A stretch of DNA of 35,500 bases from a bacterium (GCA_043801585.1 JAZDLX010000002.1:1-35500), one strand, 5' to 3'; shown: positions 15,314 through 35,073, numbered from the stretch's first letter. The notes: a model not told the origin generated them from the letters alone. Numbers and translations: made by a program.

Positions 15314-15428
15314 TGTCATTGCGAGGAATCCGTCAGCCGACGGATGACGAAGCAATCTCGAAGTTGCATGCGTAACAAATTCTTGAACAGTGAGATTGCT
15401 TCGGCGACTGTGCCGTCGCGCAATGACA
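15314..15428. repeat. GTCATTGCG..GAAGCAATCTC REP doublet containing a nested 16-bp palindrome
   Basis: Left unit tgtcattgcgaggaatccgtcagccgacggatgacgaagcaatctc, right unit gagattgcttcg..cgcaatgaca; the left unit is 46/47 identical to 34068-34114. Confidence 0.8.
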
Positions 15429-15662
15429 AAATAGTCTCTCTTTCGTAATGCTGGATCCTTAGCGCAGCGGTGGGTGGCTCGATTTGCTCGCAAATCGGGT
15501 TTCTCGACCGTTCAGATACCCGATCCACTAAGGTCGCGATCGGGTTTCTGAAAACAAGTAAACCCTGTCGGAAGAACCTACAGGGCCAATACCTGTCGTG
15601 TCAGGTCGTCAGTGGAGGGAGAATTGAAACACTAAACGAAACGGTAATCTCAAACACAATGA

Positions 15663-15689
15663 GACCCGACTTGACGAGCAAGTCGGGTC
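15663..15689. repeat. Perfect hairpin (REP-like) at the left border of the AT-rich islet
   Basis: gacccgacttg-acgag-caagtcgggtc, 11-bp perfect stem. Confidence 0.6.
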
Positions 15690-15691
15690 AC

Positions 15692-15871
15692 CCAGTCGCA
15701 ATTTCTATCCTCAGCCTTGGCGGTGCAATTCACACTGCAGGATGGAGTCTATTAACAGCAGGAATTGCTCTTTTCGAAGGTTATAAAAGTGTCACTGAAT
15801 ATCAGAATAACGTTAAACTTAATCCAGCTTATTTTCTTTGGAAAATAAATAAACAAAGAACTGTTAAATAA
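15692..15871 (+). pseudogene. AT-rich 3' remnant of a foreign gene
   Basis: Reads PVAISILSLGGAIHTAGWSLLTAGIALFEGYKSVTEYQNNVKLNPAYFLWKINKQRTVK*; protein-like and AT-rich, while the in-frame sequence upstream is palindromic repeat DNA. Confidence 0.5.
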
Positions 15872-16032
15872 TAAATCAGTTATCATTAGCATCCACATTA
15901 TAATATAATTACTCCACAACTTCGAAGGGTGGACAGTTGTAAATGGCCTGCCACTCCAGGGTCAGGTCTTCAATATAGGACAGTTATTACGCATTAAGTA
16001 AAGCCAACTTAGCGAGCATGACAGGACTTATT

Positions 16033-16527
16033 TTAATTCTTTGATAAATTGTAGACATCTCCAAAGTCTTGTTCATCTAACCTGTATCTCTTAATTTTAC
16101 CATCAACTTCTCTAAGTTCGATAAACTTATAATTATTTTCGTAATCATATTGTACTGGTACATACAATTTAATTCTGCTACCCTTTCTTGATAAAACTAT
16201 CTTCTCTGGTCCTTTTTCTCTAGGGTTCCACTTATTTTCATCAATTATCGCATTGCGTTCATAAGCATAATAACCAATCGTGTTAATTATTCTGTTTATA
16301 TCATCAATGCTGTATTTTTTCTCATAAACTACTATATCTCTGGTTGTACCTATCTTTATACCAGAAAGATCATCTATCTTTTCCAATGTAAAATCAATAT
16401 TTTCTGATAGAGTCATTAAACAAGCGCTTAATGAATCCCTTAATTTATTTTTCTCCTTCCATTCATTGAACCAAATAAATACTAGAATAAGTATTATGAG
16501 AAATAACACTAGTATTATACTAATCAT
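16033..16527 (-). CDS. Hypothetical N-terminally membrane-anchored protein, AT-rich
   Basis: 164-aa ORF with MISIILVLFLIILILVFIW anchor; 23-30% GC in two sampled 60-nt lines; AGAGGG RBS; ATG 18 nt after the lon stop. Confidence 0.75.
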   Translation of the reverse strand: MISIILVLFLIILILVFIWFNEWKEKNKLRDSLSACLMTLSENIDFTLEKIDDLSGIKIGTTRDIVVYEKKYSIDDINRIINTIGYYAYERNAIIDENKWNPREKGPEKIVLSRKGSRIKLYVPVQYDYENNYKFIELREVDGKIKRYRLDEQDFGDVYNLSKN

Positions 16528-16545
16528 TGGATGGCCCTCTTTAAA

Positions 16546-18906
16546 TCACTCGATAAACGCCTCTTTCCACACCTCTTCGATGTGACTGACGAACTTCACC
16601 TCGAGGCCTTTGCCGACACCCTTGGGACGGTCCTCCCACTCGGGGATGTTCTCGTAGGGCATCAAGACCGTCTTGATCCCGGCGCGTTGAGCGGCCATCA
16701 CCTTTTCATTGATCCCACCCACCGGAAGCACCTCGCCCTGCAGCGCGATTTCGCCGGTCATCGCGAGGTCGCCGCGAACCTTTTTCCCGGAAAGCGCCGA
16801 GAGCAGCGCCGTGGCGAGGGTGACACCGGCGCTGGGACCGTCCTTCTTGACCGCGCCTTCGGGAACGTGAATGTGGATCTCACGGTCCTTGAACATCTTT
16901 TCGTCGACGCCGAGTTCCTTGGCTTTGCTGCGGATGTAGGTGAGCGATGCCTGTGCCGACTCCTTCATCACTTCGCCGAGCTGGCCTGTCAGGGTGAGCT
17001 GGAATTTGCCGGGCATGGTGCGTACCTGGATCTTCAGCACGTCACCGCCGACGGGGGTCCAGGCGAGGCCGATGGCGCCGCCGATCATTGGCTCGAAATC
17101 GAGCTGGCTGCGGTGATGCCGCGAGATTCCCAACAGCGATTTCAGACGGCTGGTGCCGATGGTAATCTGGCCGTTGGCCTTGCCGTTCTCCACACGCTTC
17201 CGTGCGATCCGCCGTATCGCTTTCGCGATCATCCGCTCGAGCTCACGGACGCCCGCTTCACGCGTGTACTCCTCCGTGATCTGGAGGATGGCGTCACGTG
17301 TGAAACGAAGATCAGCGGGTTTGAGGCCGTGCTCCTTGATCTGTTTCGGGATCAGGAATCCCTCGGCGATGTGCAGTTTCTCTTCGGTGAGATAGCCGGG
17401 CAGTTCGATGATCTCCATGCGGTCCTGCAGGGGCAGCGGGATGCCGTCGCGGGTGTTCGCAGTCGTCACGAACAAAACCTGGCTGAGGTCATACTCGACC
17501 TCGAGATAATGGTCGGAAAACAATGCATTCTGTTCCGGGTCGAGCACCTCGAGCAGCGCAGAGCTCGGATCGCCACGGAAATCCACAGACATCTTGTCGA
17601 CTTCGTCAAGCAGGAAAACCGGGTTGATCACGCCCGCCTTGCGCATTGACTGAATAATCCGTCCCGGCTGGCTGCCGATATAGGTCCGCCGGTGTCCACG
17701 GATTTCCGCTTCGTCACGCACACCCCCGAGACTGACGCGGACGAATTTCCGATTCAGGGCGCGGGCAATGGACCTTCCGAGAGACGTCTTCCCCACTCCC
17801 GGTGGACCGACGAGGCAGATGATCGGACCGCGCATTTTTTTGACCAGTGAAAGCACCGCAAGGTGTTCGAGGATTCGCTCTTTCGGTTTGAAAAGGCCGT
17901 AGTGGTCCTCATCAAGTATCACGGCTGCCCGTGATATATCATGGCGGTCGCGTGTTTTTTTCGACCAGGGAAGCGCAAGAATCCAGTCGAGGTAATTGCG
18001 GACGACGGTCGCCTCGGGCGAAAGCATCGGCATTCCCTTGAGCTTCTCGAGCTCCTCCTCCACTTTCTCCCGCGCGGGGGGGTTGAGCTTCACCTCCTCC
18101 ATTTTCTTCTGGTAGGCGAGGACATCTCCGAAATCGTCATCCGCCTCGTCACCGAGCTCCCGTTTGATCGCGCGGAGTTGCTCCTGCAGGAAGAAGGTAC
18201 GTTGAGAGGTGCTGATCCGTTCGCGCACCTGCCCCTCGATGCTTCGTTCGATCTGAAGCACTTCAATCTCATGGGCGAGCTGATTGGAGATCTCGACGAA
18301 CTGATCGTAGGGAGTCTGGGCCTCGAGAATCCGCTGCTTGCGCTGGTAGGGAACGTTCAGATGCGCCGAGACATAATCCGCAAGCCGTTGCGGATCCCGG
18401 ATCGAATCAAGCGAGTAGAGGAGTTCGTCCGGAAGGTTGCGGTTAAGTGGTACATACTCTCTGAAAAGGCCGACAGCATGCCGCTGCGCCCCCTCAAGGC
18501 GGATGTCCTGGCGAACGCTGGCGACGATGGGAACGAGGTTCGCCGCGAGGTAGCCTTCTTTTTCGACAGGTTCGGTGACACGAGCGCGAATGATTCCCTC
18601 GATGAGAACCTTCACCATCCCGTTGGGCAGCTTCATCACCTGAACGACTTTCGCCACGATGCCGATGCGGAAAAGGTCGTCAAAGGTCACTTCGTCCATC
18701 GCAGCGTCCTGCTGAGCGAGCAGCAGGAGCAACCGTTCGTTCATCATGGCGGCTTCGATGGCGCGGAGCGTTCCCTCTCTGCCGACGAGAAGCGGGAAAA
18801 CCATGCGGGGAAAAATGACCTGGTCACGTACGGGAAAAACCGGCAGCAACCCGGGTATCTTCGGCTGCGCCTCTTCTTCAGTGGGGAGTGTTTCTCGCTT
18901 GTTCAT
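16546..18906 (-). CDS. lon: ATP-dependent protease Lon
   Basis: LPVFPVRD N-domain, [21 protein letters not shown] (catalytic Ser), GGINEK (catalytic Lys). Confidence 0.98.
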
Positions 18907-18910
18907 GTCC

Positions 18911-20164
18911 TCACGCGCGCTTGCGGTTGCCCGGCATGTCGAGCACCGCGTCCATCTTGCCCAGCACCACGTCCTTCGTGATCAGGACACGGCGCACATT
19001 CTTGCGTGAAGGTACGGTAAACATCGGCTCGAGCATCACCTGTTCCAGTATCGAACGCAGGGCGCGTGCACCGGTCTTGCGCTCCCGGGCCATCTGGACG
19101 ATCTCGTCGAGAGCGTCGTCATCGACGATAAGGTCCACATTCTCAAGCTTGAACAGGCGTTTGTATTGCTTCAACAGCGCATTTTTCGGCTCGAGGAGAA
19201 TCTGCTTCAACGCCTCGTCGGAAAGTTCGCTGAAGGGACCAATCACCGGCAAACGACCGATCAATTCCGGAATCAACCCGTAATGAACGAGATCCTGCGG
19301 CTGAGTCTGACGCAACAGTTCGAACGTCGAAAGATCGGCCATTTTGCGGATGTCCGCACCGAATCCCATCATCCGCTTGCCGATGCGCCGTTTGACGATA
19401 TCCTGCAACCCTTCGAAGGCACCGCCGCAGATGAAGAGAATGTTACGCGTATCGATGGTAATCAGTTTCTGTTCGGGATGCTTTCGGCCGCCTTCCGGAG
19501 GAACGCTCGCCTTGGTCCCCTCCAGTATTTTGAGCAATGCCTGCTGGACACCCTCACCGGACACGTCACGTGTGATGCTTGCGTTCTGGCTTTTGCGGCT
19601 GATCTTGTCGAGTTCATCAATGTAGACAATGCCGACTTCCGCGTTGGCGACATCGTAGTCCGCGGCCTGCAGCAGTCGAACCAGCACATTTTCCACATCC
19701 TCTCCGACATATCCCGCTTCGGTCAAGGTGGTGGCGTCGGCGATTGCGAACGGCACCTGTAGCAGTTTCGCGAGAGTCTGAGCGATCAGCGTTTTTCCGG
19801 TTCCCGTGGGACCGACCAGGAGGATGTTGGATTTCTCGAGTTCAACGTCGTCCTCGATCTGGGTGCTGTTGATTCGCTTGTAGTGGTTATACACCGCAAC
19901 AGCGATCTTCCGTTTCGCCTCGATCTGGTCAATGACATACTCATCCAGCCGGATCTTGATCTCTTCCGGCGTCGGGAACGTCTCCACAGGGCGTGACTGG
20001 TGCTTGGAGGAGTTCTGGCGGATGATGTGGTCTGACGCTCGTATGCAATGATCGCAGATCATCACTCCGGATGGTCCGCTGATCATCACCTGGGTCTGGT
20101 CCGCGGTCCGTCCGCAAAAGCTGCACCGCTGATGGTTTCTGCCGGTATCCTTGTTCTCACTCAT
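18911..20164 (-). CDS. clpX: Clp protease ATP-binding subunit ClpX
   Basis: CSFC..CDHC zinc finger, [29 protein letters not shown] loop, TGARALR. Confidence 0.98.
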
Positions 20165-20188
20165 CGAAGCCTCCCGATCCCGACTACT

Positions 20189-20815
20189 CTACTTCTTGCT
20201 CTTGCTGCTCTTGCTCTTTTCACGATCACTACCCTGGATTTTGTCGATAATGCCGTACTTCAGCGCCTCGGCAGGATCCATGAAGTGATCGCGGTCCACA
20301 TCTTTCGCAATTTGATCGACACTTTGGCCGGTGTGATGTGAGAGAATCTTGTTCAGTTTTTCGCGAGACTTCAACACCTCGCGGGCGTGAATTTCGATAT
20401 CCGCAGCCGTTCCGCGGAAACCTCCGGAAGGCTGGTGAATCATGATCATGCTGTTGGGGAGGGCCGAACGCTTGCCTTTGGTGCCCGCAGCGAGAAGCAC
20501 CGCGGCCATTGACATAGCCATGCCAATGCAGATGGTCTGCACGTCCGGTTTAATGTGTTGAATTGTGTCGTAAATCGCGAGTCCATCCGGAACCGACCCA
20601 CCGGGGCTGTTGACATAAAGGCTGATGTCCCGCTCGGGGTCTTCCGCTTCGAGAAAAAGCAACTGAGCGATGACAAGGTTGGCGATGTTGTAGTCGATCG
20701 GGTGACCGATGAAGATGATATGCTCCTTGAGCAGCCGGCTGTAAATATCATAGGCCCTTTCGCCGCGACCTGTCTGCTCAATGACCATGGGGATCAGTTG
20801 GCTCGTCGTACTCAT
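20189..20815 (-). CDS. clpP: Clp protease proteolytic subunit ClpP
   Basis: [23 protein letters not shown] (catalytic Ser), MIHQP. Confidence 0.98.
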
Positions 20816-20853
20816 GGTATTCCTTCCCTCTGGTTGACGCGGTGATGTCCGGG

Positions 20854-22149
20854 CTACCGAAGCACCTGGACGAAATCCACCTTCTTTTCCTTGAGCTTCA
20901 CACCCTCTTTCAACGCATCGATCAGCTTGCGGCCAACGATTTCGTCGGCAAGGCGCTGACGGTTGTCGCCGCCGCCGAACATCAATTTGAGATCTTTGAT
21001 GTTCGCGCCTTCGGTGCGTTGTGCATATTCCTCAATGTGTTTATCAATGTCTTCGTCCGTTGCTTCAAGCTGCAAATCGCTGATCAATTGATTTCGCAGG
21101 AAGTACCAGCGCAGTTGACGTTCCGCGTAGGGCTTGAGCTGTTCGCGAAGCGTTTCCGCTTTTACCCCTTTGCGAACATGTTCCGGCTGTTCCTCATAGA
21201 GACGGTTGATCGTGTCTTCCACCAGGCTCGGCGGCACATCGAACTCGTGTGCATTGACGATGGCGTCCACCATGCGCCCCTCGAGACGCTGATCCGCCTG
21301 GTACTTCGCGTAGTTTTCGAGTTGCTGGCGGGCGTCATCACGAAGCGCCTGCATCGTCGCGAATTTTTCATCGACGGACTGGGCGAAGGAGTCGTCCAGC
21401 TCCGGAAGCTCGATCTTCTCGACCTTCTTCACATTCACCTGCCACATGACGTCCTGCGTCGCTTCCTTGCCGCTTTCATCATGCACATGGCGGTGTGTTT
21501 TCACTTTACGGCTTTCACCGGTGACGAGGCCGACAAGTAATTCATCGCTGCCGTGGCCCAGCGTCTCCTGCCCAAGCTCGAACGCCGCATCTTCATGACG
21601 ATGCCCGATCATCGGGAGACCGCCTTCGTCCAGCTCCTGCAGGTCAGCGGTGATCCTGTCGTTCATCTCGGCGCCCTCGTCCGCGGGACGTTCCGAAATG
21701 ATGGCACGTTCGCGGCGCATTCCGGCCAAGTGACGTTCGACATCATCATCTGAAACCAGAGGAACCTCTTTTTCCACCGCGAGATCCTTCCACTTGTCCG
21801 CTTTGAACTCGGGTTCCACTTCCACAACAGCCGTAAATTTCAGGTGTTTGTCCGGATCATACTCCACATCCTCAACCGAGCCGGGCGCAACCGGTTCGAC
21901 CTTCGCCTGCTCAATCGCTTCCGGATAGACCGACTGGATGATATCCTCGGCAGCCTCGGCTTTGATCGATGCTCCGAACCGCTTTTCGATTACAGACAGC
22001 GGGACCTTCCCTTTGCGAAAGCCATCCAGTTTAGCCTCATTCTGAGCCTTCTTGAACGCTTTTTCGATGTGCGGTTTGATTTCTTCCGCATCGAGTTCGA
22101 CACGGAACTTGACAAGGATTCCCTCACGGGTAGGTGGGCTGACGTTCAC
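20854..22149 (-). CDS. tig: Trigger factor
   Basis: GFRKGKVP ribosome-binding motif and [12 protein letters not shown]; upstream of clpP. Probable GTG start at 22149 rather than 22218. Confidence 0.94.
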
Positions 22150-22416
22150 TGTTTCCGTTTCCTGCGTATTTATGCCACGTTGGCTGTCTCTATCGGAAAT
22201 GTAAAGTCCGGGCGGCAAAGAGAAGTAGGCTTAAGTCCCACCCCCCGGAGACGTTTCTGGGGATGCTGAAAAACCCCTCGGCCTTAGTGTCGGGTTTTAA
22301 AGGTCGTGGAGCAAGAGTCTGAATGTGGATTGTGCTCCGTTCGGGGAAGGTTCAATCAGGGGAACAAATCGTGTTTCCATGTGTTTTTCTAAACCGGATC
22401 CGCGAGCGCGATCGCG

Positions 22417-22854
22417 TTAAAAAACGCCACCGAGATCGTCGATCGTGTTCTCCAGCGTCCAGTCCGCGCTCGGAAATTTCCCGGCGACGGACCACCAGTC
22501 GATATCTCCGGCAGAAGGAACCCACCGAAGGAACTCTTTCCACCTCAGTGTCAGACCATCGGTGACCGCGACGATTTCTTCATATAATTCCTCATCCGTC
22601 GCGTCCGATTCCACCACCAGGCGCATCGTGTTGTAGAACATCTCTTCATCCGGGAAATCGATCTTCGCGTGCCAACGAATTGATTTCGCTTCAGGAACGA
22701 CCTTGAAGAGCTCACGCCAGCGCATATAGATCTCACGGAAATACTGGCCGCCATGCGCCTTCTTCAATCGTTCGGCCAGCAATTCGTTGGGATATTCATT
22801 GGCAACGATGATCAGACTGATCGCATCATTGAAGGGACGGTGGTCACTCATCAT
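22417..22854 (-). CDS. Hypothetical protein (about 145 aa) with an internal duplicated RW-x-E..VP-x-A..I-x-W motif
   Basis: AAAGGAG RBS before ATG 22854/22851; the longer ORF-track version (to 22995) overlaps the tRNA and is unlikely. Confidence 0.7.
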   Translation of the reverse strand: MMSDHRPFNDAISLIIVANEYPNELLAERLKKAHGGQYFREIYMRWRELFKVVPEAKSIRWHAKIDFPDEEMFYNTMRLVVESDATDEELYEEIVAVTDGLTLRWKEFLRWVPSAGDIDWWSVAGKFPSADWTLENTIDDLGGVF

Positions 22855-22956
22855 CGCTCCTTTCACCCGGACGTTCAACAAACCACGTTCATCAATCCTG
22901 CTGACAGTGGATCGAACCACGATATCAGGAGTTGATTCAGATTCCAGAAAAGATCG

Positions 22957-23038
22957 TGCGAGCGGAGGGACTCGAACCCTCACGCCACAGGGCACAAGAT
23001 CCTAAATCTTGCGTGTCTGCCAATTCCACCACGCTCGC
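22957..23038 (-). tRNA. tRNA-Leu (anticodon TAG), CCA not encoded
   Basis: GCGAGCG acceptor stem, TGGTGGAATTGGCAGACAC D-arm, CAAGA-TTTAGGA-TCTTG anticodon arm, long variable arm, GAGGGTTCGAGTCCCTC T-arm, discriminator A. Confidence 0.96.
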
Positions 23039-23374
23039 GGGTGACTGCAAAGTACGTGGTGAAGAAGAAAAAATCCACCAGTCAAGCCTCGCACCTGTAC
23101 TGATGAATCATTCGGGTCACATTCGACTTCGCCATTTCATTTGCCAGCGATATCCGTAATAATTCTTTATCCTTTTCCTTGCCGGAAAATGGATTTTTCG
23201 TTTTGCGAACTTCATTCATTCGGCTTCCAACTTGCGTTGAAGGCAACTCGTATGACTCTGTTGAACAGGCTGACGAAACCATAAGGTCAAAACAGCGCCA
23301 AGTCGAGTGACGTGTTTCCCCACTCCTCTCGGAAACGTATCTTCTTTTAAATTGCGAAAGCAACGAGGACACCT

Positions 23375-24280: not shown

Positions 24281-24320
24281 ACGATCTTGCCGCTGGAATG
24301 GAAGTACCGCTGAGATAGAA

Positions 24321-24342
24321 GCCCGGACATTTACGTCCGGGC
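24321..24342. terminator. Hairpin between convergent lipoprotein genes (REP-like, possible terminator)
   Basis: gcccggac-atttac-gtccgggc, perfect 8-bp stem without a strong U tract. Confidence 0.5.
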
Positions 24343-24374
24343 CGATTCACCCTGCACCCGCTTGAACCGGGAAG

Positions 24375-26258: not shown

Positions 26259-26352
26259 TGTTAATCCCCGGTGAGATACTATGAAATAAAGAAAAGCAGG
26301 TGTTACGTCCTCCTATAAAAAACGTCGGATGCAATAAGTCTAAGTGGTCTTT

Positions 26353-27408
26353 TCACTTCTTTTTTCGTTCCTGCTGTTCGCTGGGGGTCTCCTCCCCCTC
26401 GTGCTCCTTCAGAAACCGCTCCAGCGTCTCCACTTCGCTGCGGCTGCCCATGAACAACGGCACTCGCTGATGAAGTGTTGTTGGCTGCACATCGAGGATC
26501 GGGATCTTTCCGTTGCTGGCGTAACCACCCGCTGTTTCGAGCAGGTAGGCCATCGGATTCGCCTCGTACATCAGGCGCAGCTTGCCTTCGGGAGCCCCTT
26601 TCTGCCCCGGATAAAGGAAGATTCCGCCATAAAGCAGGTTGCGATGAAAATCGGCGACCATTGATCCGATATACCTCGCGGACATCGGTTTTTTCAACCC
26701 CTCTTCACCAAAGCCTTTGCAGCGGTCCACATAGAGCTGGACACCCCGTGACCACTTGTGGTAATTCCCTTCATTCACCGAAAAGATGCCGCACTTTTCA
26801 GGAATTTTCAGGTTCGGGTGGGAAAGAATGAAGGTCCCGACCGAGGGGTCCAGCGTGAATCCGTGCACGCCATTGCCCGCCGAATAGACCATCATCGTCG
26901 AAGAACCGTAAAGCACGTAGCCCGCCGCGATGATGTTTCTACCGGGTTGAAGGAAATCCTCCATCGTCCCCGGACCGCCGGGATTCGAGACACGATGGTA
27001 GATCGCGAAGATGCTGCCGATGGAAACATTGGCATCGATATTCGAGGAACCATCCAGCGGGTCCATCAATACCACGTACTTGCCGCTGTTCGTGTACGTC
27101 GGACCGAGGATCAAGTCCTCATCCTCTTCGGAGGCCATGGCACAGACGAGTCCTGAATACTTCAGGATGTGCTTGAACAGGTCATTCGCGTACACATCCA
27201 GTTTTCGAACCTGTTCGCCCTGGACGTTCATTTCACCGGTAAATCCGGAAATCTCGTCGATCAGTCCGGCTTTTTTCACCTCCCGGCTGATGACTTTCGC
27301 CGTCAGCACGATTTCATCCATCAATGCACTGAAATCGCCGGTGGCCTGCGGAAATTTTCTCCTCTCAATGCCAATGAACCGCGTGATGGTGATGAACTCC
27401 TGTGGCAC
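26353..27408 (-). CDS. fbp: Fructose-1,6-bisphosphatase class 1
   Basis: NVQGEQVRKLDV, ASEE, DPLDGSSNID, RYIGSMVADFHR, GKLRLMYEANP; GTG start with GGAGGA RBS. Confidence 0.97.
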   Translation of the reverse strand: MPQEFITITRFIGIERRKFPQATGDFSALMDEIVLTAKVISREVKKAGLIDEISGFTGEMNVQGEQVRKLDVYANDLFKHILKYSGLVCAMASEEDEDLILGPTYTNSGKYVVLMDPLDGSSNIDANVSIGSIFAIYHRVSNPGGPGTMEDFLQPGRNIIAAGYVLYGSSTMMVYSAGNGVHGFTLDPSVGTFILSHPNLKIPEKCGIFSVNEGNYHKWSRGVQLYVDRCKGFGEEGLKKPMSARYIGSMVADFHRNLLYGGIFLYPGQKGAPEGKLRLMYEANPMAYLLETAGGYASNGKIPILDVQPTTLHQRVPLFMGSRSEVETLERFLKEHEGEETPSEQQERKKK

Positions 27409-27687
27409 AGATCCTCCTTACCCGGTTATTCCCATCATCGTGATCCGCATCCCTCGTTGACTCGAGCTCGAACCTTGGCAAAATAGTGTGCCCACTCACG
27501 GTGGGCAATGAGGTACTGCTCTCTCAACAAGACGATCAGAATATTGTGATTATTGCAATTAAAAACGCGCCGATCGTGAATTTCAATCGACGCTCGGGAC
27601 AATTCCCGGCTGGCAGGCAGCCGGGCCACACATCGGCGTTCGGAAATTCTATCATCCTTGAGACACCGAAAGGCCACAAAAACATTC

Positions 27688-27785
27688 ACAGGATGGACAG
27701 GATAAACAGGATAGTTAAAATCGGAAATAAGCTTCACCCTTTTTGGACACGATCATGTCCATCCTGTTTATCCTGCCCATTCTGT
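27688..27785. repeat. Inverted repeat built from 9-bp periodic units (ACAGGATRR ... ATCCTGTYY)
   Basis: Left acaggatggacaggataaacaggat (27688-27712); right atcatgtccatcctgtttatcctgcccattctgt (27752-27785); 39-nt spacer. Confidence 0.78.
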
Positions 27786-27805
27786 TATTCTTTTCATCTT
27801 CCTGA

Positions 27806-28504
27806 TTACCTGTCGCTGACCATTCCCCGCAGGAGCAGGAGTCGGACGAGGTTGAGAATCGAGGATGCCGCGGCTGCCACGTAGGTCCACGCTGCGGCGG
27901 TGAGCATCGCTTTCGCGCCCGCAGCTTCGTCGGACATCACATAGCCATCGGTGTTCAGCACCGCGAGTGCACGCCGCGAAGCGTCGAACTCCACCGGCAA
28001 TGTCACCATGTGGAAAAGGACCACCAGGCTGAACAGGACGATGCCGGCATCGATCAGGTGAATCCCGCCACTGCCCATGATGAAACCGATGATGACCAGC
28101 GGAAACGCCAGCCAGCTCCCGAACTGTACCGGACCGACCAGTGCATGACGGAACCGGAGCATCGAATACCCTTCCATGTGCTGGACGGCGTGTCCAACCT
28201 CGTGCGCCGCTACCGCCAGCCCCGCCACGGATGGCTTCGAATAGTTCTGTTCAGACAGGAAGACCGTGTGGCTGCGAGGGTCGTAGTGATCCGAGAGCAA
28301 ACCCCTCGTCGCCTTGACTTCCACATCCTGCAACCCAAACCGGTCGAGGATGCGCCGCGCCGTCTGGGCGCCGGTGAGTCCGCTGCGGTTTGCGATACGG
28401 CTGTATTTCCGATAGGCGCTCTGCACCTTGTTCTGAGCCCACACCGCCAGGATGATCGCCGGTATCAGCAGGATCATCGTTGGATCGAACAGCGGGAAAA
28501 ACAT
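27806..28504 (-). CDS. Membrane zinc metallopeptidase, YugP (Zn_peptidase_2) family
   Basis: LSDHYDP, AVAAHEVGHAVQH, TLPVEFDASRRA, AAAWTYVA. Confidence 0.93.
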   Translation of the reverse strand: MFFPLFDPTMILLIPAIILAVWAQNKVQSAYRKYSRIANRSGLTGAQTARRILDRFGLQDVEVKATRGLLSDHYDPRSHTVFLSEQNYSKPSVAGLAVAAHEVGHAVQHMEGYSMLRFRHALVGPVQFGSWLAFPLVIIGFIMGSGGIHLIDAGIVLFSLVVLFHMVTLPVEFDASRRALAVLNTDGYVMSDEAAGAKAMLTAAAWTYVAAAASSILNLVRLLLLRGMVSDR

Positions 28505-28623
28505 CCTGTTCTCCTTTCTCCATCACATTTGATGCATACCGGTGTTCGGTCATTGAAAATACGCTCGGAATGGGGGTTTCGTTCCAGTAGCCAGCACTGC
28601 TCAGGTCCCCGGGAGGTCAAGTT

Positions 28624-28701
28624 GAAAAATGTATCAGGTACTTTAATCAATCAGATTCAAGTAATACATCGGCACGAAAAAGGTATCTGGTACATTTTTC
28701 C
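28624..28701. repeat. Long inverted repeat, second member of the ATGTAYCAGGTAC family
   Basis: gaaaaatgtatcaggtacttt / aaggtatctggtacatttttc (18/21, all three mismatches G-T compatible). Confidence 0.75.
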
Positions 28702-28816
28702 TTTCCTGTCATCGAAGCCAGTTTACCAGTGAACTACTCAATCCCCGGACGTTAGACATTGCGCCCGCTCCCCGATCCGGTCTATCTTCACGCACCCCGA
28801 GGAACCGACGGACGGA

Positions 28817-29461
28817 TTGATGATCAATTACCAGTTGGCACGCGAGGAGATGGTGCAAACGCTGGAGCGCAAGGGGATACGCGATCCCCTTGTGTTGGCG
28901 GCAGTGCGCGAGATCAAACGGCACCTCTTCGTCCCCAACAACCTGCGCCACCGTGCCTACGAGGATTCCCCCCTTTCCATCGGCGAAGGACAGACGATCA
29001 GCCAGCCGTTCATGGTTGCCCGAATGACCGAACTGTTGGGGCTCCAGGGCGACGAAAAAGTCCTCGAGATCGGTACCGGGTCGGGCTACCAGGCGGCGAT
29101 TCTCTCGCGGCTTGCATCCAAGGTGTTCACCATCGAACGGATCAGCGCACTCGCCCGCCAGGCGGAAGAACGATTCGAGAAGATGGGACTCGGCAACATC
29201 GTACAACGGGTCGGTGACGGCTCAATCGGCTGGAAACAGGTTGGACCCTTCAACGGGATCATCGTAACCGCCGCATCGCCACACATCCCGACAGCTCTAA
29301 CCGATCAGTTGAGTGAAGGTGGCCGCCTTGTCATCCCAACAGGCCCGCGGCGAGTGCAGGATCTGAAGCTCGTCATCCGCATCGGCAATGAATTGAACGT
29401 AACGAGTCACGGCGGGTGTGTTTTCGTGCCCCTGATCGGGAGTGATGGATGGACGGACTGA
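28817..29461 (+). CDS. pcm: Protein-L-isoaspartate O-methyltransferase
   Basis: RHLFVP, IGEGQTISQP, VLEIGTGSGYQAAIL, GDGSIGW, IIVTAA, FVPLIG. Confidence 0.96.
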   Translation: MMINYQLAREEMVQTLERKGIRDPLVLAAVREIKRHLFVPNNLRHRAYEDSPLSIGEGQTISQPFMVARMTELLGLQGDEKVLEIGTGSGYQAAILSRLASKVFTIERISALARQAEERFEKMGLGNIVQRVGDGSIGWKQVGPFNGIIVTAASPHIPTALTDQLSEGGRLVIPTGPRRVQDLKLVIRIGNELNVTSHGGCVFVPLIGSDGWTD

Positions 29462-29982
29462 TCCTGTTGAGCATCGGAGAACGGGTTGCCAGCGCAATTG
29501 TCACATGGATGCAGGGCGTCCCTCCCTGGCTGATTGTTGTCGTCATTGCGATGCTCCCTATTGTTGAGCTCCGTGCAGCGATTCCCGTGGCGATTGCCGC
29601 TCTGCACATGCACTGGGCGGAAGCTGTGGTGTTCTCGATTCTCGGAAATATGATCCCGATCCCCTTTGTGCTCTGGCTGCTGGACCCGATCCGCCGACTG
29701 CTCAGCCGTTGGACGTTTTTTAACCGCCTGTTCGAGAAAATCTTTCAACACGCTTTGAAACGCAGCAAAGCTCTGCAGCACACTGAATCTATCGGATTGA
29801 TTCTCTTTGTCGCCATCCCCCTCCCCGCGACCGGCGCCTGGACAGGTTCTCTGGTCGCCTACCTGCTCCGGTTTCCAAGGGGCAAATCTTTGATTTACAT
29901 ACTTTACGGTGTGATTATCGCCTCGATTGTGGTCACCCTTGCGACCATCGGGACATTGGGAGCTGTACACCTGATCGGTTAG
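29449..29982 (+). CDS. COG2426 / putative small multi-drug export family membrane protein
   Basis: AMLPIVELRAAIP, GLILFVAIPLPATGAWTG; overlaps pcm by 13 nt. Confidence 0.88.
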   Translation: MDGLILLSIGERVASAIVTWMQGVPPWLIVVVIAMLPIVELRAAIPVAIAALHMHWAEAVVFSILGNMIPIPFVLWLLDPIRRLLSRWTFFNRLFEKIFQHALKRSKALQHTESIGLILFVAIPLPATGAWTGSLVAYLLRFPRGKSLIYILYGVIIASIVVTLATIGTLGAVHLIG

Positions 29983-30086
29983 TCAACGGTCACACCTGTG
30001 TGCTCCATGTCACATGTGTGGATTTCCTGTCCCACATTCAAACAAGCTAAATTCTCTAACAAACTGTTATTTAAGGATTATAGTTC

Positions 30087-30102
30087 TGGCATTGCGGTTG
30101 CA
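30087..30102 (+). promoter_or_regulatory. Sigma-54 (-24/-12) promoter
   Basis: TGGCATTGCGGTTGCA fits TGGCAC-N5-TTGCW with exact GG-N10-GC spacing, 41 nt before ATG 30144; IHF-like TAACAAACTGTTA at 30057-30069. Confidence 0.7.
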
Positions 30103-30143
30103 TTTGCATTGAGCAAGCCGGAGCATAATTCGAGGGACAGACG

Positions 30144-31952
30144 ATGAACAGTGACAACAAGGTTGCCTCATCCATTCATTCAAGCAAGCTGTTAAACAAA
30201 GGGTTAAAGACGCATCAGCAGCGTTTGAGCTACACCTTTCTGTCCCTTTTGGCGCTTTTCCTGCTGGCTGGTTTTGTATTTCCCGGCAGCTCGGCGCTTG
30301 CCCAATCAGACAACCCCGACAGCTTGGGGCTTTTTGGAAAGGATCTGATTGATAAAGAATTGAACTCTTCCTTCCCAAAAGACTTCTTCCCTCATCAGAA
30401 ACTTGATTCTTACCAGCAACGCTGGTTCAGTATCACCCTTTACAAGGGAATCAGTTTCTGGGGCACCAACTCCGACAATGTGATCAACCACGCCGTTATC
30501 GGACTCTCGGTGGACCGGATGGCACGTCTTGAGGGTATCGGAGTTGCAGCCATCGGAAGCGCGGCGATCGAACACGTTTACGGAATCCAGATTGCACCAT
30601 TGGGAGCCGCCGCCGGAGGGGATCTGATCGGATTTCAGGCTGGATTGGGAGCCGCAGCCGGTGGAAATGGAACCGGTATTCAGGTCGGTTTTGCAGGTGC
30701 TGTCATCGGGGAGTCATTTCGGGGTATCCAACTATCCCTTTTTGCTTCTGCAACAGGTAGAGACGTCACTTTAGTACAGATCAGCGGGTTGGCTGCTGTT
30801 GCCGGTCGAAGAGTTTCCGCCTTGCAGGTCGGTGGTTTTGCCTCTGTTGCGGGTAGCGAACTCAACGGAATTCAGCTCTCCGGGCTGAGTGCGGTGGCAG
30901 GGGCGGATGTTCGTGGCATTCAATTCTCAGGGTTGGCTTCCGTGGGTGGACGGGATGTCACCTTCGCCCAGGTCGGCGGTCTCGCTTCAGTTGCCGGCCG
31001 GGATGTCAACGCGATTCAGTTGGCAGGATTTGCGTCCGTTGGAGGCCGCGATGTCAACGGCGTGCAAATGGGTGGATTGGCTGCTGTTGGGGGTCGTGAT
31101 TTCAAGGGAATCCAAGCGGGTGGTCTCGCCGCAGTGACTGGTGAGAACATGATCGGCATCCAGGCGAGCGGTGTGGGGAGTGTCATCGGTGGACGGATGA
31201 GGGGCATCCAGATTTCCGGCCTTGCCAACGTCGCCGCGAATGACATGCAGGGGTTGCAGGTGGGTACAGCCAATTTCGGCTCGAGACAAAAGGGGCTTCA
31301 GATTGGTGCCATTAACGCCGCTGAGGACTTGCGGGGGTTGCAGATTGGCATCACCAACAGCACCTACGATCTCTACGGCATTCAGATTGGTTTGATCAAC
31401 CAGATTGATGGCGAGAACCACGGTATCCACATCGGCGCGATCACGAAAATCTCTGGTGAGAATCGTTACCTGGAACTCGGCTACGGCGCGGAAGGTTCCG
31501 CCGACATCAACTACATCACCGGAACACGCATTCTTCGTTCCATTGTGTCAATAAAAGTTGCGCCCTGGGAGAACCCCGATTGGTGGATGCTGGGCGGGGG
31601 CATTGGAACACAGTTCGCGGTGATCCCGGATGCGTTCGACGTCGAACTTGACGGTATTTATTACAAAATCAACGATGGCGATTTCTGGACTTCGAAGGAA
31701 CACTGGATGTTCACGGGACGTCTGATTGGCCTCGTCCCGATTACCGAAACGATCTCCTTGTATGGCGGACTCACCTACAACACCCTGACCTCGCGTCTCA
31801 ACGACGGGGAAAGGTACGAGGCTATTGCCCTGGATGATTCGGTCAATTGGAAGGTTTTTCATCGCAGATGGATCGGATACCAGGCTGGGATGCGCGTGAT
31901 ATTCAACCGAGTATCCATTTTCGAGTCACTGTTTAATGCCATGGTGATTTAG
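30144..31952 (+). CDS. Surface/outer-membrane protein with about 20 G-x-Q repeats (LA_2272-like) and a probable C-terminal beta-barrel
   Basis: Signal peptide ending SSALA; 16-aa repeats (e.g. RDVNGVQMGGLAAVGG) then 14-aa repeats (GLQIGAIN) at about 30525-31454; amphipathic strands near the end (GYQAGMRVIF). Confidence 0.8.
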   Translation: MNSDNKVASSIHSSKLLNKGLKTHQQRLSYTFLSLLALFLLAGFVFPGSSALAQSDNPDSLGLFGKDLIDKELNSSFPKDFFPHQKLDSYQQRWFSITLYKGISFWGTNSDNVINHAVIGLSVDRMARLEGIGVAAIGSAAIEHVYGIQIAPLGAAAGGDLIGFQAGLGAAAGGNGTGIQVGFAGAVIGESFRGIQLSLFASATGRDVTLVQISGLAAVAGRRVSALQVGGFASVAGSELNGIQLSGLSAVAGADVRGIQFSGLASVGGRDVTFAQVGGLASVAGRDVNAIQLAGFASVGGRDVNGVQMGGLAAVGGRDFKGIQAGGLAAVTGENMIGIQASGVGSVIGGRMRGIQISGLANVAANDMQGLQVGTANFGSRQKGLQIGAINAAEDLRGLQIGITNSTYDLYGIQIGLINQIDGENHGIHIGAITKISGENRYLELGYGAEGSADINYITGTRILRSIVSIKVAPWENPDWWMLGGGIGTQFAVIPDAFDVELDGIYYKINDGDFWTSKEHWMFTGRLIGLVPITETISLYGGLTYNTLTSRLNDGERYEAIALDDSVNWKVFHRRWIGYQAGMRVIFNRVSIFESLFNAMVI

Positions 31953-32017
31953 GCCGGTTCACAATGAATGGCCATCTGGGGGAGGGACCGGACCCGCCCT
32001 CCCCTGTTTCCTCCCAA

Positions 32018-32052
32018 GACACCCGAACGTCTGAAAAGGCGTTCGGGTGTTT
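32018..32052 (+). terminator. Probable terminator hairpin after the repeat-protein gene
   Basis: gacacccgaacgtct-GAAA-aggcgttcgggtgtt followed by a short T run. Confidence 0.6.
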
Positions 32053-32067
32053 GATTCAGAAATTAAA

Positions 32068-32152
32068 AAGGGGACACGTACCTATTAATTTTCTCGTTCA
32101 ATGCACGCAAGTGCATACCTCATTAACAGAATTAAAAGGTACGTGTCCCCTT
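32068..32152. repeat. Long inverted repeat, GGGGACACGTACC family
   Basis: aaggggacacgtacctattaatt / aattaaaaggtacgtgtcccctt match 22/23; inner hairpin atgcac-GCAA-gtgcat. Confidence 0.78.
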
Positions 32153-32174
32153 AATTCCCACGAACGCTAATCAA

Positions 32175-32294
32175 TCATTCTGAATCCGCCAGCCGGCGGA
32201 TGAAGAATCTCTCGTTGTGAGTTCTCAAGAACGACCGATTGAATCACATCGAGAGATCCTTCTCGTCCCGAACCTTCGTGACGTCAGGATGACA
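32175..32294. repeat. TCATTCTGA..GAAGAATCTC REP doublet containing a nested 16-bp palindrome
   Basis: Left tcattctgaatccgccagccggcggatgaagaatctc; right gagatccttc..tcaggatgaca. Confidence 0.72.
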
Positions 32295-32320
32295 CCTCGA
32301 CTGCGTCCTCGTTAAAGTAG

Positions 32321-32350
32321 AAAATCCCCCCAAATACATTGAGGGGATTT
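32321..32350 (-). terminator. Probable terminator of fumC
   Basis: Minus strand AAATCCCC-TCAATGTATTTGG-GGGGATTTT, 24 nt after the stop. Confidence 0.55.
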
Positions 32351-32374
32351 GATTCCTCACGATCAGTCGAAGGC

Positions 32375-33766
32375 TTATTTCTTCGGCCCGGTCATCAACT
32401 CCGGACGAACGACCTCGTCGAATTTCTCGGCGGTCATCAGACCCAGCGCGACCACCGCCTCCTTCAGGGTCGTCCCCTCCTTGTGCGCCTTCTTTGCCAC
32501 TTTCGCCGCGTTGTCATACCCGATGTGCGGGTTCAACGCGGTGACCAGCATCAGCGATTCCTGCAGGTACTTGTTGATCTGCTCGCGGTTCGGCTGGATG
32601 CCGACGACGCAATTGTCCGTGAGCGACAGGCAGACATCCCCGAGCAACTTGGCGGACTGGAGGAAATTGTAGATCATCACCGGCTTGAAGACGTTCAGTT
32701 CGAAATGGCCGGTCGCTCCGCCGATGTTGATCGCAACGTCGTTTCCCATCACCTGGGCCGCGACCATCGTCGCCGCTTCCGGCTGGGTCGGGTTCACCTT
32801 GCCCGGCATGATCGAGCTACCGGGCTCGTTTTCCGGAAGCATCAGTTCGCCAATGCCGCAACGCGGTCCGCTGCCGAGCAGGCGGATGTCGTTGGCGACT
32901 TTCATCAGGCTGACGGCTACAGTTTTCAACGCCCCGTGCGCCTCGACGATGGTGTCATGGGAGGCGAGCGCCTCAAACTTGTTCGGTGCGGTGACGAAGG
33001 GCAATCCCGTCAGTTCGGCGATCTTGGCCGCCGAGCGTTCGGCGAATTCCGGGTGGGTGTTGAGGCCGGTGCCGACAGCCGTTCCGCCGAGCGCCAGTTC
33101 GTAGACATGCGGGAGCACCGCTTCGATCCGCACCAGCGCCATCGTCATCTGGTGGGCGTACCCGCTGAACTCCTGGCCGAGGGTCAACGGCACGGCGTCC
33201 ATCAGGTGGGTGCGGCCGATCTTGACAATATCCTTGAACTCCTCGGACTTATCCTTCAGCCCATTGCGGAGTTTCAACACACCCGGCAGGGTGACCTTGT
33301 TCAGCATCGTCGCCGCCGCGATGTGCATCGCCGTCGGGAAGGTGTCGTTAGAGGATTGCGCCTTGTTCACATCGTCATTGGGATGGACCGGGTCCTTGCT
33401 GCCGATCACCCCGCCCGCCATTTCGATGGCGCGGTTGGCGATCACCTCGTTGACGTTCATGTTCGACTGCGTGCCCGACCCGGTCTGCCAGACGACGAGC
33501 GGGAAATGGCCGTCAAGCTTGCCCTCGATCACCTCGTCCGCCGCGGCGACGATCAGCTTCGCCTTCTCTTGCGGGAGTGTGCCCAGCTCGGCGTTGACCA
33601 GTGCGGCCGCCTTCTTCAGGATGCCGAACGCCTTGATCAGTTCCGGCGGCATCGTCTCCCCGCCGATCTTGAAATTCATCAGACTGCGGGCTGTCTGAGC
33701 GCCCCAGTACTTGTCGCTGGGCACTTTCATCTCGCCCATCGTGTCCTTTTCAACACGGTACTCCAT
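32375..33766 (-). CDS. fumC: Fumarate hydratase class II
   Basis: [48 protein letters not shown] signature; ATG 33766 with GGGAGG RBS. Confidence 0.98.
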
Positions 33767-33788
33767 GGGTAAACCTCCCACTTCCGCC

Positions 33789-33817
33789 ATTATGGCGGAG
33801 GTTTCATCCGGACGCAA
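33789..33817 (-). promoter_or_regulatory. Candidate sigma-70 promoter of fumC
   Basis: Minus strand TTGCGT-17 nt-CATAAT; the -10 box lies within the palindrome TCCGCCATAATGGCGGA. Confidence 0.5.
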
Positions 33818-34067
33818 CCGGGATTGCAGATGTGGCGGCGAATCGTCCAGGCAAACTTCTCCCCCGGACCCACTTCGCCCCGGATTTCCTTTTCAATGGA
33901 GAGAAGATAAGGCGTGATTTGCGGAAGGTGTAGTGGCCTCCCTCTCGGGGAATTTGGTGGAGATTTCGATTACAGGACTGAACTCTCCTGAGAATTTCCA
34001 AATAGTTAAGAAGGCTGTCGCTTTGTAACTGTCTGGATACTCCCCCGAGTATCCATCGTTGCGGTCG

Positions 34068-34312
34068 TGTCATTGCGAGGAATCCGTCAGCTGACGGATG
34101 ACGAAGCAATCTCGTCGTCTTTTATGAAACCCGGGACTGATCCGCCGGCTGGCGGACCGGGCCACCCTACTGAGCCACCCCTCTGTCATCCCCGCAACCT
34201 GTCCGCCCACCGGCGGAAGGCGGGGATCCATTTTCACCAAAAACACTAGCATGTAGCCCGGTTTCTTGAAACCGGGAGAATGATCACTCCCGGATTCGAG
34301 AATCCGGGCTAC
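34068..34312. repeat. Cluster of four REP-like families between elbB and fumC, three carrying the nested micro-palindrome
   Basis: 34068-34114 (GTCATTGCG type), 34125-34167 (CCCGGGACT type), 34184-34230 (GTCATCCCCGC..GCGGGGATCCA type), 34253-34312 (GTAGCCCGG doublet). Confidence 0.8.
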
Positions 34313-34326
34313 CGTAATTGAAACGG

Positions 34327-34986
34327 TTATTTCACCATCTTCAGCGTCGCGTCAACCAGCTTGCGGATGCCCTTGGCGACGTCGGAGATGCTGGCGTTGT
34401 ACATGTAGGCCGGTGCGGAAACGATCCGGTTCTTGCGGTCGATGACGACGTCATCCACGGGGCACTCGACATGTTCCGCGCCCATTTTCACAATCGCTGC
34501 GGCGGTGGCTGGATCGTTGCCGATGGTCAGTTTGACCGGGATTTTCGCCTTGCCGAGGACACGGGCGACGACAGTCGGGGCGATGCACATCGGGGCGATC
34601 GGTTTGCCTGCCTTGTGGAACGCCAGGATCAGTTTCTCGAGCTCACGATTGACCCGGCATTTCGCACCCTTGACGGCGAAGTTGCTGAGGTTTTTCGCGG
34701 CGCCGAATCCGCCGGGCAGGATCAGTGCATCATAACGGGCAGTTGCCTGCGAGAGGGGTTTGATTGCGCCCCTTGCGATCCGCGCGGCTTCCACGAGGAC
34801 GTTCCGTTTCTCCTTGGATTCCTTGCCGGTGAGGTGGTTGATCACGTGCATTTGTTTGACATCGGGCGCGAAGATGGTCACCTTGGCGCCTTTTTCGCTG
34901 AGACGCAGCAACGTGATCACCGCTTCATGCAGTTCGCTCCCATCGTACACCCCGCTTCCGGAAAGCACTACGGCGACATGTGCCAT
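34327..34986 (-). CDS. elbB: ElbB/ES1 (DJ-1/PfpI superfamily) glyoxalase
   Basis: VAVVLSGSGVYDGSELHE, NVLVEAARIARG, PGGFGAAKNL, MCIAP, LTIGND, PAYM. Confidence 0.95.
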   Translation of the reverse strand: MAHVAVVLSGSGVYDGSELHEAVITLLRLSEKGAKVTIFAPDVKQMHVINHLTGKESKEKRNVLVEAARIARGAIKPLSQATARYDALILPGGFGAAKNLSNFAVKGAKCRVNRELEKLILAFHKAGKPIAPMCIAPTVVARVLGKAKIPVKLTIGNDPATAAAIVKMGAEHVECPVDDVVIDRKNRIVSAPAYMYNASISDVAKGIRKLVDATLKMVK

Positions 34987-35032
34987 CCTGTCCTCCCTTG
35001 TGTTTCGGTTCGCGGTTCTGAAATGAATATTG

Positions 35033-35073
35033 TAGTCATTCTGAATCCGCCAACTGGCGCGTCAGGATGACTA
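35033..35073. repeat. Collapsed REP doublet hairpin between the sigma-54 regulator and elbB
   Basis: tagtcattctga-atccgccaactggcgcg-tcaggatgacta; both ends match the ends of the element at 32175-32294. Confidence 0.65.

What the first reader, a model, noticed from the sequence alone, without database searches (positions are those of the whole stretch)
15329..35059. A 16-bp micro-palindrome (TCCGYC-N4-GRCGGA) nested inside several unrelated REP families: candidate element that targets other repeats
Seen: tccgtcagccgacgga (15329-15344), tccgccagccggcgga (32185-32200), tccgtcagctgacgga (34083-34098), tccgccggctggcgga (34141-34156), tccgcccaccggcgga (34202-34217), truncated tccgccaactggcg (35046-35059), and a 17-bp variant at 33783-33799. 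Six of the seven copies noticed lie inside host palindromes from four families (GTCATTGCG, TCATTCTGA, CCCGGGACT, GTCATCCCCGC). The stem covaries (C-G versus T-A at position 5) while the loop varies, so the hairpin shape is what is conserved. Established: REPs are spread by HUH/RAYT transposases acting on single-stranded hairpins. Inference: a much smaller unit is independently written into other hairpins by an unknown trans-acting enzyme, none of which is visible in this window. Two of the filled copies may simply descend from an already filled host. I know of no description of this, but could not search the literature.
Basis: partly seen in the sequence, partly recalled or inferred. Interest (0 to 1): 0.8.

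Follow-up and report, generated by a model that had tools for sequence, protein, structure and literature searches.

The report
16-base cap overwriting DNA hairpin tips
A 16-base palindrome occurs 74 times in this genome and in several bacterial phyla, where it stands in place of the tips of other small hairpins (repeats, tRNA-gene copies, RNase P RNA) and of a few bases in genes; it is likely pasted in by a hairpin-cutting nuclease that has not yet been identified.

Summary
TCCGYC-N4-GRCGGA occurs 74 times in the genome; 64 copies lie outside predicted genes, where 0.16 are expected. Empty alleles exist for all four hosts, and four orthologous sites differ from the sister species by a clean 20-base indel. 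Two modes appear: the 16-mer replaces a 3-10-base mini-hairpin tip, or a 20-mer (16-mer plus CARG) inserts in a loop. It is not REP-specific. It also stands in duplicated tRNA pieces, RNase P helices, terminator-like hairpins, heptamer arrays and genes (net +12 bases, PPAGG). Sister 16-mers (TCCCGA, TGCCGA, TCAGCC arms) fill the same slots, once at identical junctions. The exact 16-mer lies in about 15,000 GTDB stretches, mostly Patescibacteria and Bacteroidota in the sample. Many copies hitch-hiked inside filled REPs. No enzyme is shown; small GIY-YIG nucleases are the best candidate, on a weak correlation. Ten literature searches found no description; the closest known kind is the cyanobacterial small dispersed repeats (paper not readable). 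This scan noted the same 16-mer earlier in another genome (e1-4996361).

The parts
15329..15344 (.). 16-nt cap (TCCGTC subfamily) in the C-GNA-G slot of a CGTC/SRM-type repeat (host 15315-15359; partner arm 15392-15427)
   Evidence: a host copy with CGAAG in the slot at C189:10518
32185..32200 (.). 16-nt cap replacing the 5-nt CGAAG mini-hairpin of a TCATYCTGA...GAAGRATC repeat (host 32175-32209)
   Evidence: 13 empty CGAAG alleles match its flanks; the whole doublet is absent at the orthologous site in G001
32266..32281 (.). decayed sister cassette (TCCCGA family) in the partner arm (32255-32292) of the same doublet
33783..33799 (.). 17-nt variant inside a hairpin (33771-33804) just upstream of the fumC start; G001 carries an extra 20-nt tailed unit here
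34083..34098 (.). 16-nt cap (TCCGTC subfamily) in a CGTC/SRM-type repeat (host 34069-34113); the G001 orthologue holds a multi-layered nest of hairpins in the same slot
34141..34156 (.). 16-nt cap in place of 4 nt (AGTC) of an AAACCCGG...CCGGGCCAC repeat (host 34127-34165); alternatively a 20-mer insertion later trimmed by 8 nt
   Evidence: 18 empty alleles match its flanks
34198..34217 (-). 20-nt tailed unit (16-mer plus CAGG on the minus strand) inserted in the GAAG loop of a GTCATCCCCGC repeat (host 34185-34229)
   Evidence: the orthologous site in G001 is empty: clean 20-nt indel
35046..35059 (.). truncated cap in a collapsed repeat doublet (35035-35071)
2380..2406 (+). empty allele of the host that is filled at 34127-34165

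Best explanation
The 16-mer is a GC-rich hairpin cap that stands in place of the tips of many unrelated small hairpins, and it is likely pasted there as a short folded DNA piece after a hairpin-cutting nuclease, most likely a small stand-alone GIY-YIG protein, opens the target in single-stranded DNA. SHOWN: filled and empty alleles; 3-10 host bases lost in one mode, mostly a whole small inverted repeat; a clean 20-base gain in the other mode (16-mer plus CARG, either orientation); sister 16-mers in the same slots; the same sequence across phyla. INFERRED: a nuclease cuts at the base or loop of a hairpin exposed in single-stranded DNA; the same kind of cut frees 16- or 20-base hairpins from existing copies; host ligation or repair joins one into the opened site; functional RNAs and genes keep it only where structure or frame survives; filled REPs then multiply it passively, and mobile GIY-YIG cassettes carry it between phyla. 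My odds: the unit is mobile and written in trans about 0.8; this particular nuclease-plus-repair route about 0.4.
For: Empty alleles: an automated flank match gives an empty allele present at least 5 times for 29 of 74 copies (hand count, after dropping one artefact, C64:6874). Orthologous 20-nt indels at 4 sites: window 34202, C81:1393, C191:23517 (sister family, same tail) and the fumC leader. One orthologous slot holds a TCCGCC cap in G000 and a TCCCGA cap in G001 (C78:33604). tRNA-Asn slot over 79 genomes: 24 of 29 matches keep the 10-nt parent (2 with one base changed); 5 of 29 carry a 16-mer at identical junctions, of two different sequences, in 3 genomes of 3 families. The replaced pieces are small DNA inverted repeats, two of which are not helices of the tRNA fold. 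Genes: CysS is filled in 1 of 16 aligned rows (net +12 nt against 13, +9 against 2); an ATPase-like gene has 1 exact copy, 1 decayed copy and 18 empty rows of 20. For GIY-YIG: excess copies correlate with GIY-YIG count over 41 genomes (rho 0.43, p 0.005) more than with Y1 count (rho 0.28, p 0.08). 8 of 9 genomes with a single GIY-YIG match have an excess of 2 or less. 6 of 7 homologues of the tRNA-lodged GIY-YIG have re-tipped tRNA pieces beside them (my reading). SsnA is a shown ssDNA hairpin-directed nuclease that ignores the loop and needs a C right after the palindrome (PMC11893778, section 8 and passages), as in the CARG tail.
Against: No enzyme gene sits regularly beside the copies: 2 GIY-YIG and 1 Y1 among 59 neighbouring ORFs scanned (59 of 90 candidates). 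SsnA cuts upstream of its hairpin, not at the tip, needs the stem sequence, and was not shown to join strands (PMC11893778). G042 has 11 copies but only one long GIY-YIG match and no Y1 (MAG, completeness not given). G003 has an excess of 12 with a single GIY-YIG match, although most of its copies look like chance matches. Kin are not independent, so the correlation is overstated, and it may only track repeat-rich genomes. Tandem arrays and coding sequence lose 4 bases without an obvious hairpin. A crude test for pairing across the site was weak (39 of 73 vs 276 of 740). In two genomes the refilled slot keeps part of the parent's stem (L387, L391), which fits local templating. No intermediate and no within-population polymorphism was seen.
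Confidence: 0.4

Rival explanations
1. An HUH (RAYT/IS200-type) tyrosine transposase cuts and rejoins the cap in single-stranded DNA, using the 4-nt tail as a guide.
For: HUH enzymes both cut and join ssDNA hairpins (PMC8266576, introduction). The genome has 13 Y1 matches, most flanked by their own inverted repeats. The tailed unit has the form hairpin plus tetranucleotide. Most cap families start with T, and GA is the commonest outward dinucleotide (38 of 206 ends).
Against: The 20-mer lies in both orientations relative to GAAG loops, whereas IS200/IS605 transposition is strand-specific. The junctions do not all follow a CT site. There is no GTAG tag. The correlation with Y1 count is weak: G002 has 24 Y1 matches and 2 copies; G018 has 1 and 23. 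Loss of 3-10 target bases is not a feature of IS200/IS605 insertion (own knowledge).
Confidence: 0.2
2. No dedicated enzyme: polymerase template switching and short-homology conversion at hairpins perfect and extend local palindromes, and convert them towards abundant existing copies.
For: Several parents already share the cap's inner stem (GCC-N4-GGC at L112 and L221). L387 and L391 keep part of the parent stem inside TCC/GGA arms. Symmetric arm changes link the sister families. The Rfam RNase P consensus already has a CCGCC/GGCGG stem in one helix that the cap occupies.
Against: It cannot readily write one exact 75%-GC 16-mer into A/T-rich arrays and genes that share no homology with it (103 of 134 sampled matches lie in flanks under 50% GC). 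It does not explain four clean 20-nt indels with a shared tail in two cap families, nor the patchy counts (0-81) among relatives.
Confidence: 0.22
3. The cap is copied from a small RNA by a reverse transcriptase or a primase-like enzyme and captured at breaks.
For: A fixed template would explain an invariant sequence across phyla, tandem units joined by CARG (C64:6874; G001 fumC leader) and self-nesting (C132:5692).
Against: No reverse transcriptase was tested or seen beside copies. Tailed copies have diverged loops (11 of 15 differ from AGCT at 3 or more positions). Two replaced pieces are hairpins only in DNA terms.
Confidence: 0.1
4. All filled copies descend from one or a few ancestral composite repeats and only hitch-hike.
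For: Two flank clusters hold 29 of 73 copies, most with the same loop.
Against: 23 flank clusters; unique targets in tRNA pieces, RNase P and genes; orthologous indels in both directions.
Confidence: 0.03

Closest known systems
Small dispersed repeats (SDR1-8) of Nostocaceae (Elhai et al. 2008, Genome Res 18:1484). Paper not held; seen only as cited in PMC5861425, PMC3116915 and PMC2884548; other details recalled
   Same: Very small (about 20 bp) repeats proposed to be mobile; SDR5 inserts into another repeat, HIP1 (PMC5861425 passage). Recalled: found in heptamer arrays and small transposons, self-nesting, no known enzyme.
   Different: Shorter (16/20 nt), a perfect palindrome with another sequence, found outside cyanobacteria in several phyla, and usually replacing target bases. 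PMC5861425 states that SDR-like repeats were not found in HIP1-rich cyanobacteria outside the Nostocaceae.
GTAG/CGTC REPs with RAYT (PMC3733652, parts 2-3 of 8 and passages read; PMC8266576, abstract and introduction)
   Same: Short palindromes, mostly intergenic and patchy among relatives. That paper notes shared complex loop types and REPs set inside small palindromes. Several hosts here are CGTC- or GTAG-type.
   Different: The cap has no GTAG/CGTC tag, does not form spaced doublets, has no adjacent cognate transposase, and sits inside REPs as their tip.
Ssn GIY-YIG nucleases with Ssn-related motifs (PMC11893778, section 8, discussion and passages)
   Same: Hosts of the GTCAT... type resemble SRMs and flank a small GIY-YIG gene here (C15). 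Loop identity is dispensable for cutting, so capped SRMs would stay targets. The CARG tail resembles the CYRG that follows the NTS palindrome.
   Different: The paper describes cleavage upstream of the hairpin and, in the parts read, no tip replacement or nested 16-mer.
Rickettsia palindromic elements (PMC10969869, passages)
   Same: Palindromic repeats inserted in frame in unrelated genes.
   Different: About 150 bp against 16 bp; the cap removes target bases.
REP-targeting insertion sequences (PMC1525189, abstract)
   Same: Elements that use REPs as targets.
   Different: Those are full-size IS elements with their own transposase.

Membership tests
REP/REPIN (RAYT-mobilised) | conserved GTAG or CGTC tetranucleotide at one end of the stem | tested here: not met
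   Flanks vary; the only recurring own tail is CARG, in 15 of 74 copies.
REP/REPIN (RAYT-mobilised) | copies arranged as spaced inverted doublets or clusters around a cognate RAYT gene | tested here: not met
   2 of 13 Y1 loci show a cap within the 260 bases read on each side, both inside host repeats; 1 Y1 among 59 neighbouring ORFs.
REP/REPIN (RAYT-mobilised) | cleavage and strand transfer by TnpA-REP | not testable with these tools
   Needs a biochemical assay.
MITE | terminal inverted repeats around an internal region, matching an autonomous transposon | tested here: not met
   The unit is only a 6+4+6 palindrome; no autonomous partner was seen.
MITE | target-site duplication | tested here: not met
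   Target bases are lost. The 20-nt insertions are clean, with at most a 2-nt TC ambiguity. In heptamer arrays a 4-nt loss cannot be told from a 3-nt duplication.
Small dispersed repeats (SDR) | very small repeat with filled and empty alleles, nested in other repeats (features partly recalled) | tested here: met
   self-nesting at C132:5692.
Small dispersed repeats (SDR) | sequence or structure of SDR1-8, and restriction to Nostocaceae | tested here: inconclusive
   SDR sequences could not be read. No cyanobacterial record among the 128 sampled GTDB loci.
Ssn-related motif (SRM) | HGTC tag, palindrome and downstream RNCYNB, cut by Ssn | tested here: not met
   By eye against the published pattern: the GTCAT... 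hosts resemble it, the 16-mer has no HGTC tag. Cutting was not testable.
Rickettsia palindromic elements | about 150-bp palindrome inserted in frame | tested here: not met
   In-frame copies exist (13 of 14 ORFs of 350 aa or more read xPPAGG), but the unit is 16 bp and replaces bases.

The most novel reading that the evidence does not exclude
A superfamily of 16-nt hairpin caps is among the smallest mobile elements yet seen. It spreads by a cap-swap reaction with no gene, no terminal repeats and no target duplication: a structure-guided nuclease/ligase clips the tip off a small DNA hairpin and seals a pre-folded oligonucleotide in its place. This has re-tipped REPs, terminators, tRNA copies and RNase P helices and written PPAGG loops into essential proteins across Patescibacteria, Bacteroidota and other phyla.
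Probability: 0.45. Interest if true: 0.88.

Novelty: new variant of a known kind. Interest (0 to 1): 0.7.

Why it matters
It would set a new lower size for mobile DNA and add a replacement mode that known REP, MITE and IS chemistry does not explain. It offers a cause for the variable loops of CGTC/SRM repeats, for variable RNase P helix tips in Bacteroidota, and for recurring PPAGG insertions in Patescibacteria proteins. It gives exact donor and target sequences, so the open question of how very small repeats move becomes testable with oligonucleotides and a few small proteins. An enzyme that pastes a short hairpin into single-stranded DNA would also be a useful tool.

Tried and rejected
Viral contigs: 86 matches to the tailed 20-mer; by eye all but one (L103) look like chance matches in ordinary sequence, so no sign of a viral home. 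Metagenome scan for fumC orthologues: 3 hits, none aligned to the window. Searches for relatives of two GIY-YIG proteins in viral contigs found none. Cross-site pairing test: too noisy to support hairpin targeting. Rfam found nothing at the G001 orthologue of the hairpin at C78:33604. Chance copies were recognised: C98:54934 and C130:2747 are shared with G001 without a length change, and several G001 and G003 matches are codon coincidences. Rolling-hairpin duplication was rejected for this family, because the loops of tandem units are not reverse complements. A strict CT-site rule was rejected on the junctions. GxxExxY, four-helix-bundle and reverse-transcriptase families were not profiled across genomes. 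Only about 0.3 Mb of G001 was held, so the orthologue survey is partial. No supplements were read; those of PMC3733652 and PMC11893778 may list such loops.

Full report
Observation. The pattern TCCGYC-N4-GRCGGA has 5 exact matches in the window at the stated places, against a shuffle mean of 0.05. The truncated and 17-nt copies are in the sequence. The genome (3.28 Mb, 225 contigs, 56% GC) has 74 copies at spacer 4 and 0-10 at each other spacer from 0 to 11. With a simple gene model of my own (89% coding), 64 of 74 lie outside genes, where a third-order Markov model expects 0.16; 30 of 40 control-spacer matches lie inside genes. A frequent 11-mer flanks 56 of 73 copies, against 149 of 740 GC-matched random sites; the immediate flanks form 23 clusters, the largest with 18 and 11 copies. 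The window's genes are ordinary housekeeping genes (lon, clpX, clpP, tig, fumC, elbB and others); none of the 24 ORFs scanned matched a transposase or nuclease family.

Filled and empty alleles. All four window hosts have empty alleles in the genome. Two modes appear. In mode 1 the 16-mer stands in place of a small piece, most often the 5-nt CGAAG/CGCAG mini-hairpin. In mode 2 a 20-nt unit (16-mer plus CARG) is inserted in a GAAG/CAAG loop with no loss, in either orientation. An automated flank match gives an empty allele present 5 or more times for 29 of 74 copies (hand count; its other matches are mostly single and unreliable). Comparison with the same-genus genome G001 (83-86% identity in fumC and elbB) shows clean 20-nt indels at four orthologous sites: window 34202, C81:1393, C191:23517 and the fumC leader; three are filled in G000 and one in G001. 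At all four the unit lies at T^TC on the strand that reads 16-mer then tail. Many other orthologous intervals were uninformative because the whole host repeat is missing in one genome.

A family of caps. The same slots are filled by other 6+4+6 hairpins: TCCCGA arms (41 copies), TGCCGA (19), CCCGCC (7), CCTGCC (6). One orthologous slot holds a TCCGCC cap in G000 and a TCCCGA cap in G001. Units occur in tandem joined by CARG (C64:6874) and nested in themselves (C132:5692). Tail-less copies stay close to the perfect palindrome (44 of 59 within one change of loop AGCT); tailed copies are diverged (11 of 15 differ at 3 or more loop positions).

Targets are not only REPs. At C174 a tRNA-Asn gene is followed by a small GIY-YIG gene and a copy of the tRNA's 3' half, in which a 10-nt inverted repeat is replaced by the 16-mer. 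Across 79 genomes of the phylum, 24 of 29 matches to this slot keep the 10-nt parent and 5 carry a 16-mer at identical junctions, of two different sequences. Sister caps tip terminator-like hairpins in G000 (by eye). The exact 16-mer is estimated in about 15,000 stored GTDB stretches from a 1/64 scan; a uniform 50%-GC genome set of that size would give about 139. Of 128 sampled loci, 43 are labelled Patescibacteria-group and 38 Bacteroidota (hand count of titles); Cloacimonadota, Elusimicrobia and others follow. 103 of 134 distinct matches lie in flanks under 50% GC; the GC-rich rest are probably largely chance. In three Bacteroidota RNase P genes the 16-mer forms or tips a helix (four helices in all), though one of these helices has a similar stem in the Rfam consensus. 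Same-locus empty alleles show replaced pieces of 3, 4, 8 and 10 nt. In 8 of 9 heptamer arrays the best phase is 4 nt missing, 6 of 7 among the well-scoring ones; this cannot be told from a 3-nt duplication. In 13 of 14 long ORFs that span a copy the frame is xPPAGG. Two genes were aligned with relatives: both show net +12 nt against most empty rows. Within the phylum, counts range from 0 to 81 per genome, with 15 of 41 at an excess of 10 or more over the control.

Mechanism. Shown: the cap appears in one piece at unrelated sites, removes 0-10 bases, makes no clear duplication, and is exchangeable with sister caps. Inferred: a nuclease opens a small hairpin in single-stranded DNA, and a folded 16- or 20-nt piece freed from another copy is joined in. 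No enzyme gene is a regular neighbour (2 GIY-YIG and 1 Y1 among 59 ORFs). Excess copies correlate with GIY-YIG count (rho 0.43) more than with Y1 count (rho 0.28) over 41 related genomes; kin are not independent, and G042 and G003 are exceptions. Six of 7 homologues of the tRNA-lodged GIY-YIG have re-tipped tRNA pieces beside them, but unselected hairpin-rich DNA may simply collect caps. SsnA shows that such proteins cut ssDNA next to hairpins, but upstream of the stem and without shown joining (PMC11893778). I give nick-and-capture by a small GIY-YIG 0.4, local templating 0.22, HUH strand transfer 0.2, reverse transcription 0.1. Part of the copy number is plain hitch-hiking in filled REPs.

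Comparison and novelty. It works like the small dispersed repeats of Nostocaceae (paper not held; known from citing passages and from recall) but is shorter, of another sequence, cross-phylum, and replaces bases. It fails the tested features of REP, MITE, SRM and RPE. Ten literature searches, including the exact 16-mer as a term, found no description; subscription journals and supplements are not covered. Papers seen: PMC3733652 (parts 2-3 of 8 and passages), PMC11893778 (section 8, discussion, passages), PMC8266576 (abstract, introduction), PMC1525189 (abstract), PMC3116915, PMC5861425, PMC2884548 and PMC10969869 (passages). Earlier AI notes of this scan describe the same 16-mer in a CPR genome and related caps elsewhere. 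They gave me the SDR, Ssn and RPE leads and are not independent evidence.

Verdict. New variant of a known kind; interest 0.7.

Noticed in passing
window 32266-32281: Decayed TCCCGA-family cap in the partner arm of the doublet that holds the 32185 copy.
   Followed up: yes
window 32068-32152: Inverted AAGGGGACAC doublet; the same repeat type flanks a Y1/RAYT-like gene on C112 and recurs many times in G001.
   Followed up: partly
window 34253-34312: GTAG-type REP doublet; G001 has a different repeat at this site.
   Followed up: partly
window 15392-15427: Partner arm of the 15315 repeat carries a different hairpin tip.
   Followed up: no
window 22956-23038 and 30144-31952: tRNA-Leu(TAG) gene; a 602-aa ORF with LA_2272-type surface repeats.
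   Followed up: no
G000 C174:22544-22907 (L364): tRNA-Asn, a small GIY-YIG gene starting right after it, then a duplicated tRNA 3' half; homologous cassettes in several other genomes of the phylum, some with many nested caps (L385, L386, L388).
   Followed up: partly
G000, 13 Y1 loci: Many RAYT/TIRYT-like genes, most flanked by their own inverted-repeat family.
   Followed up: partly
G000 C78:33550-33680 and L361: Conserved intergenic hairpin with no Rfam match whose side slot holds different cap families in the two species.
   Followed up: partly
G000 C25:23470-23560 and G001 fumC-elbB gap (L016): Multi-layered nest of three or more hairpins inside one CGTC-type repeat, shared between the species at different loci.
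   Followed up: no
L368, L375, L377 (G044): Sister cap TCCGAC-N4-GTCGGA occurs as head-to-head doublets around one base, in tRNA-like pieces beside GIY-YIG genes.
   Followed up: no
L183, L186, L207, L353, L392-L418: RNase P helix tips vary strongly among Bacteroidota, and several are recognisable caps of sister families.
   Followed up: partly
L274 vs L180: A decayed +12-nt insert at the same codon of an ATPase-like gene, so in-frame caps can persist and drift.
   Followed up: partly
G000 C78:90415-90507: Selenocysteine tRNA gene.
   Followed up: no
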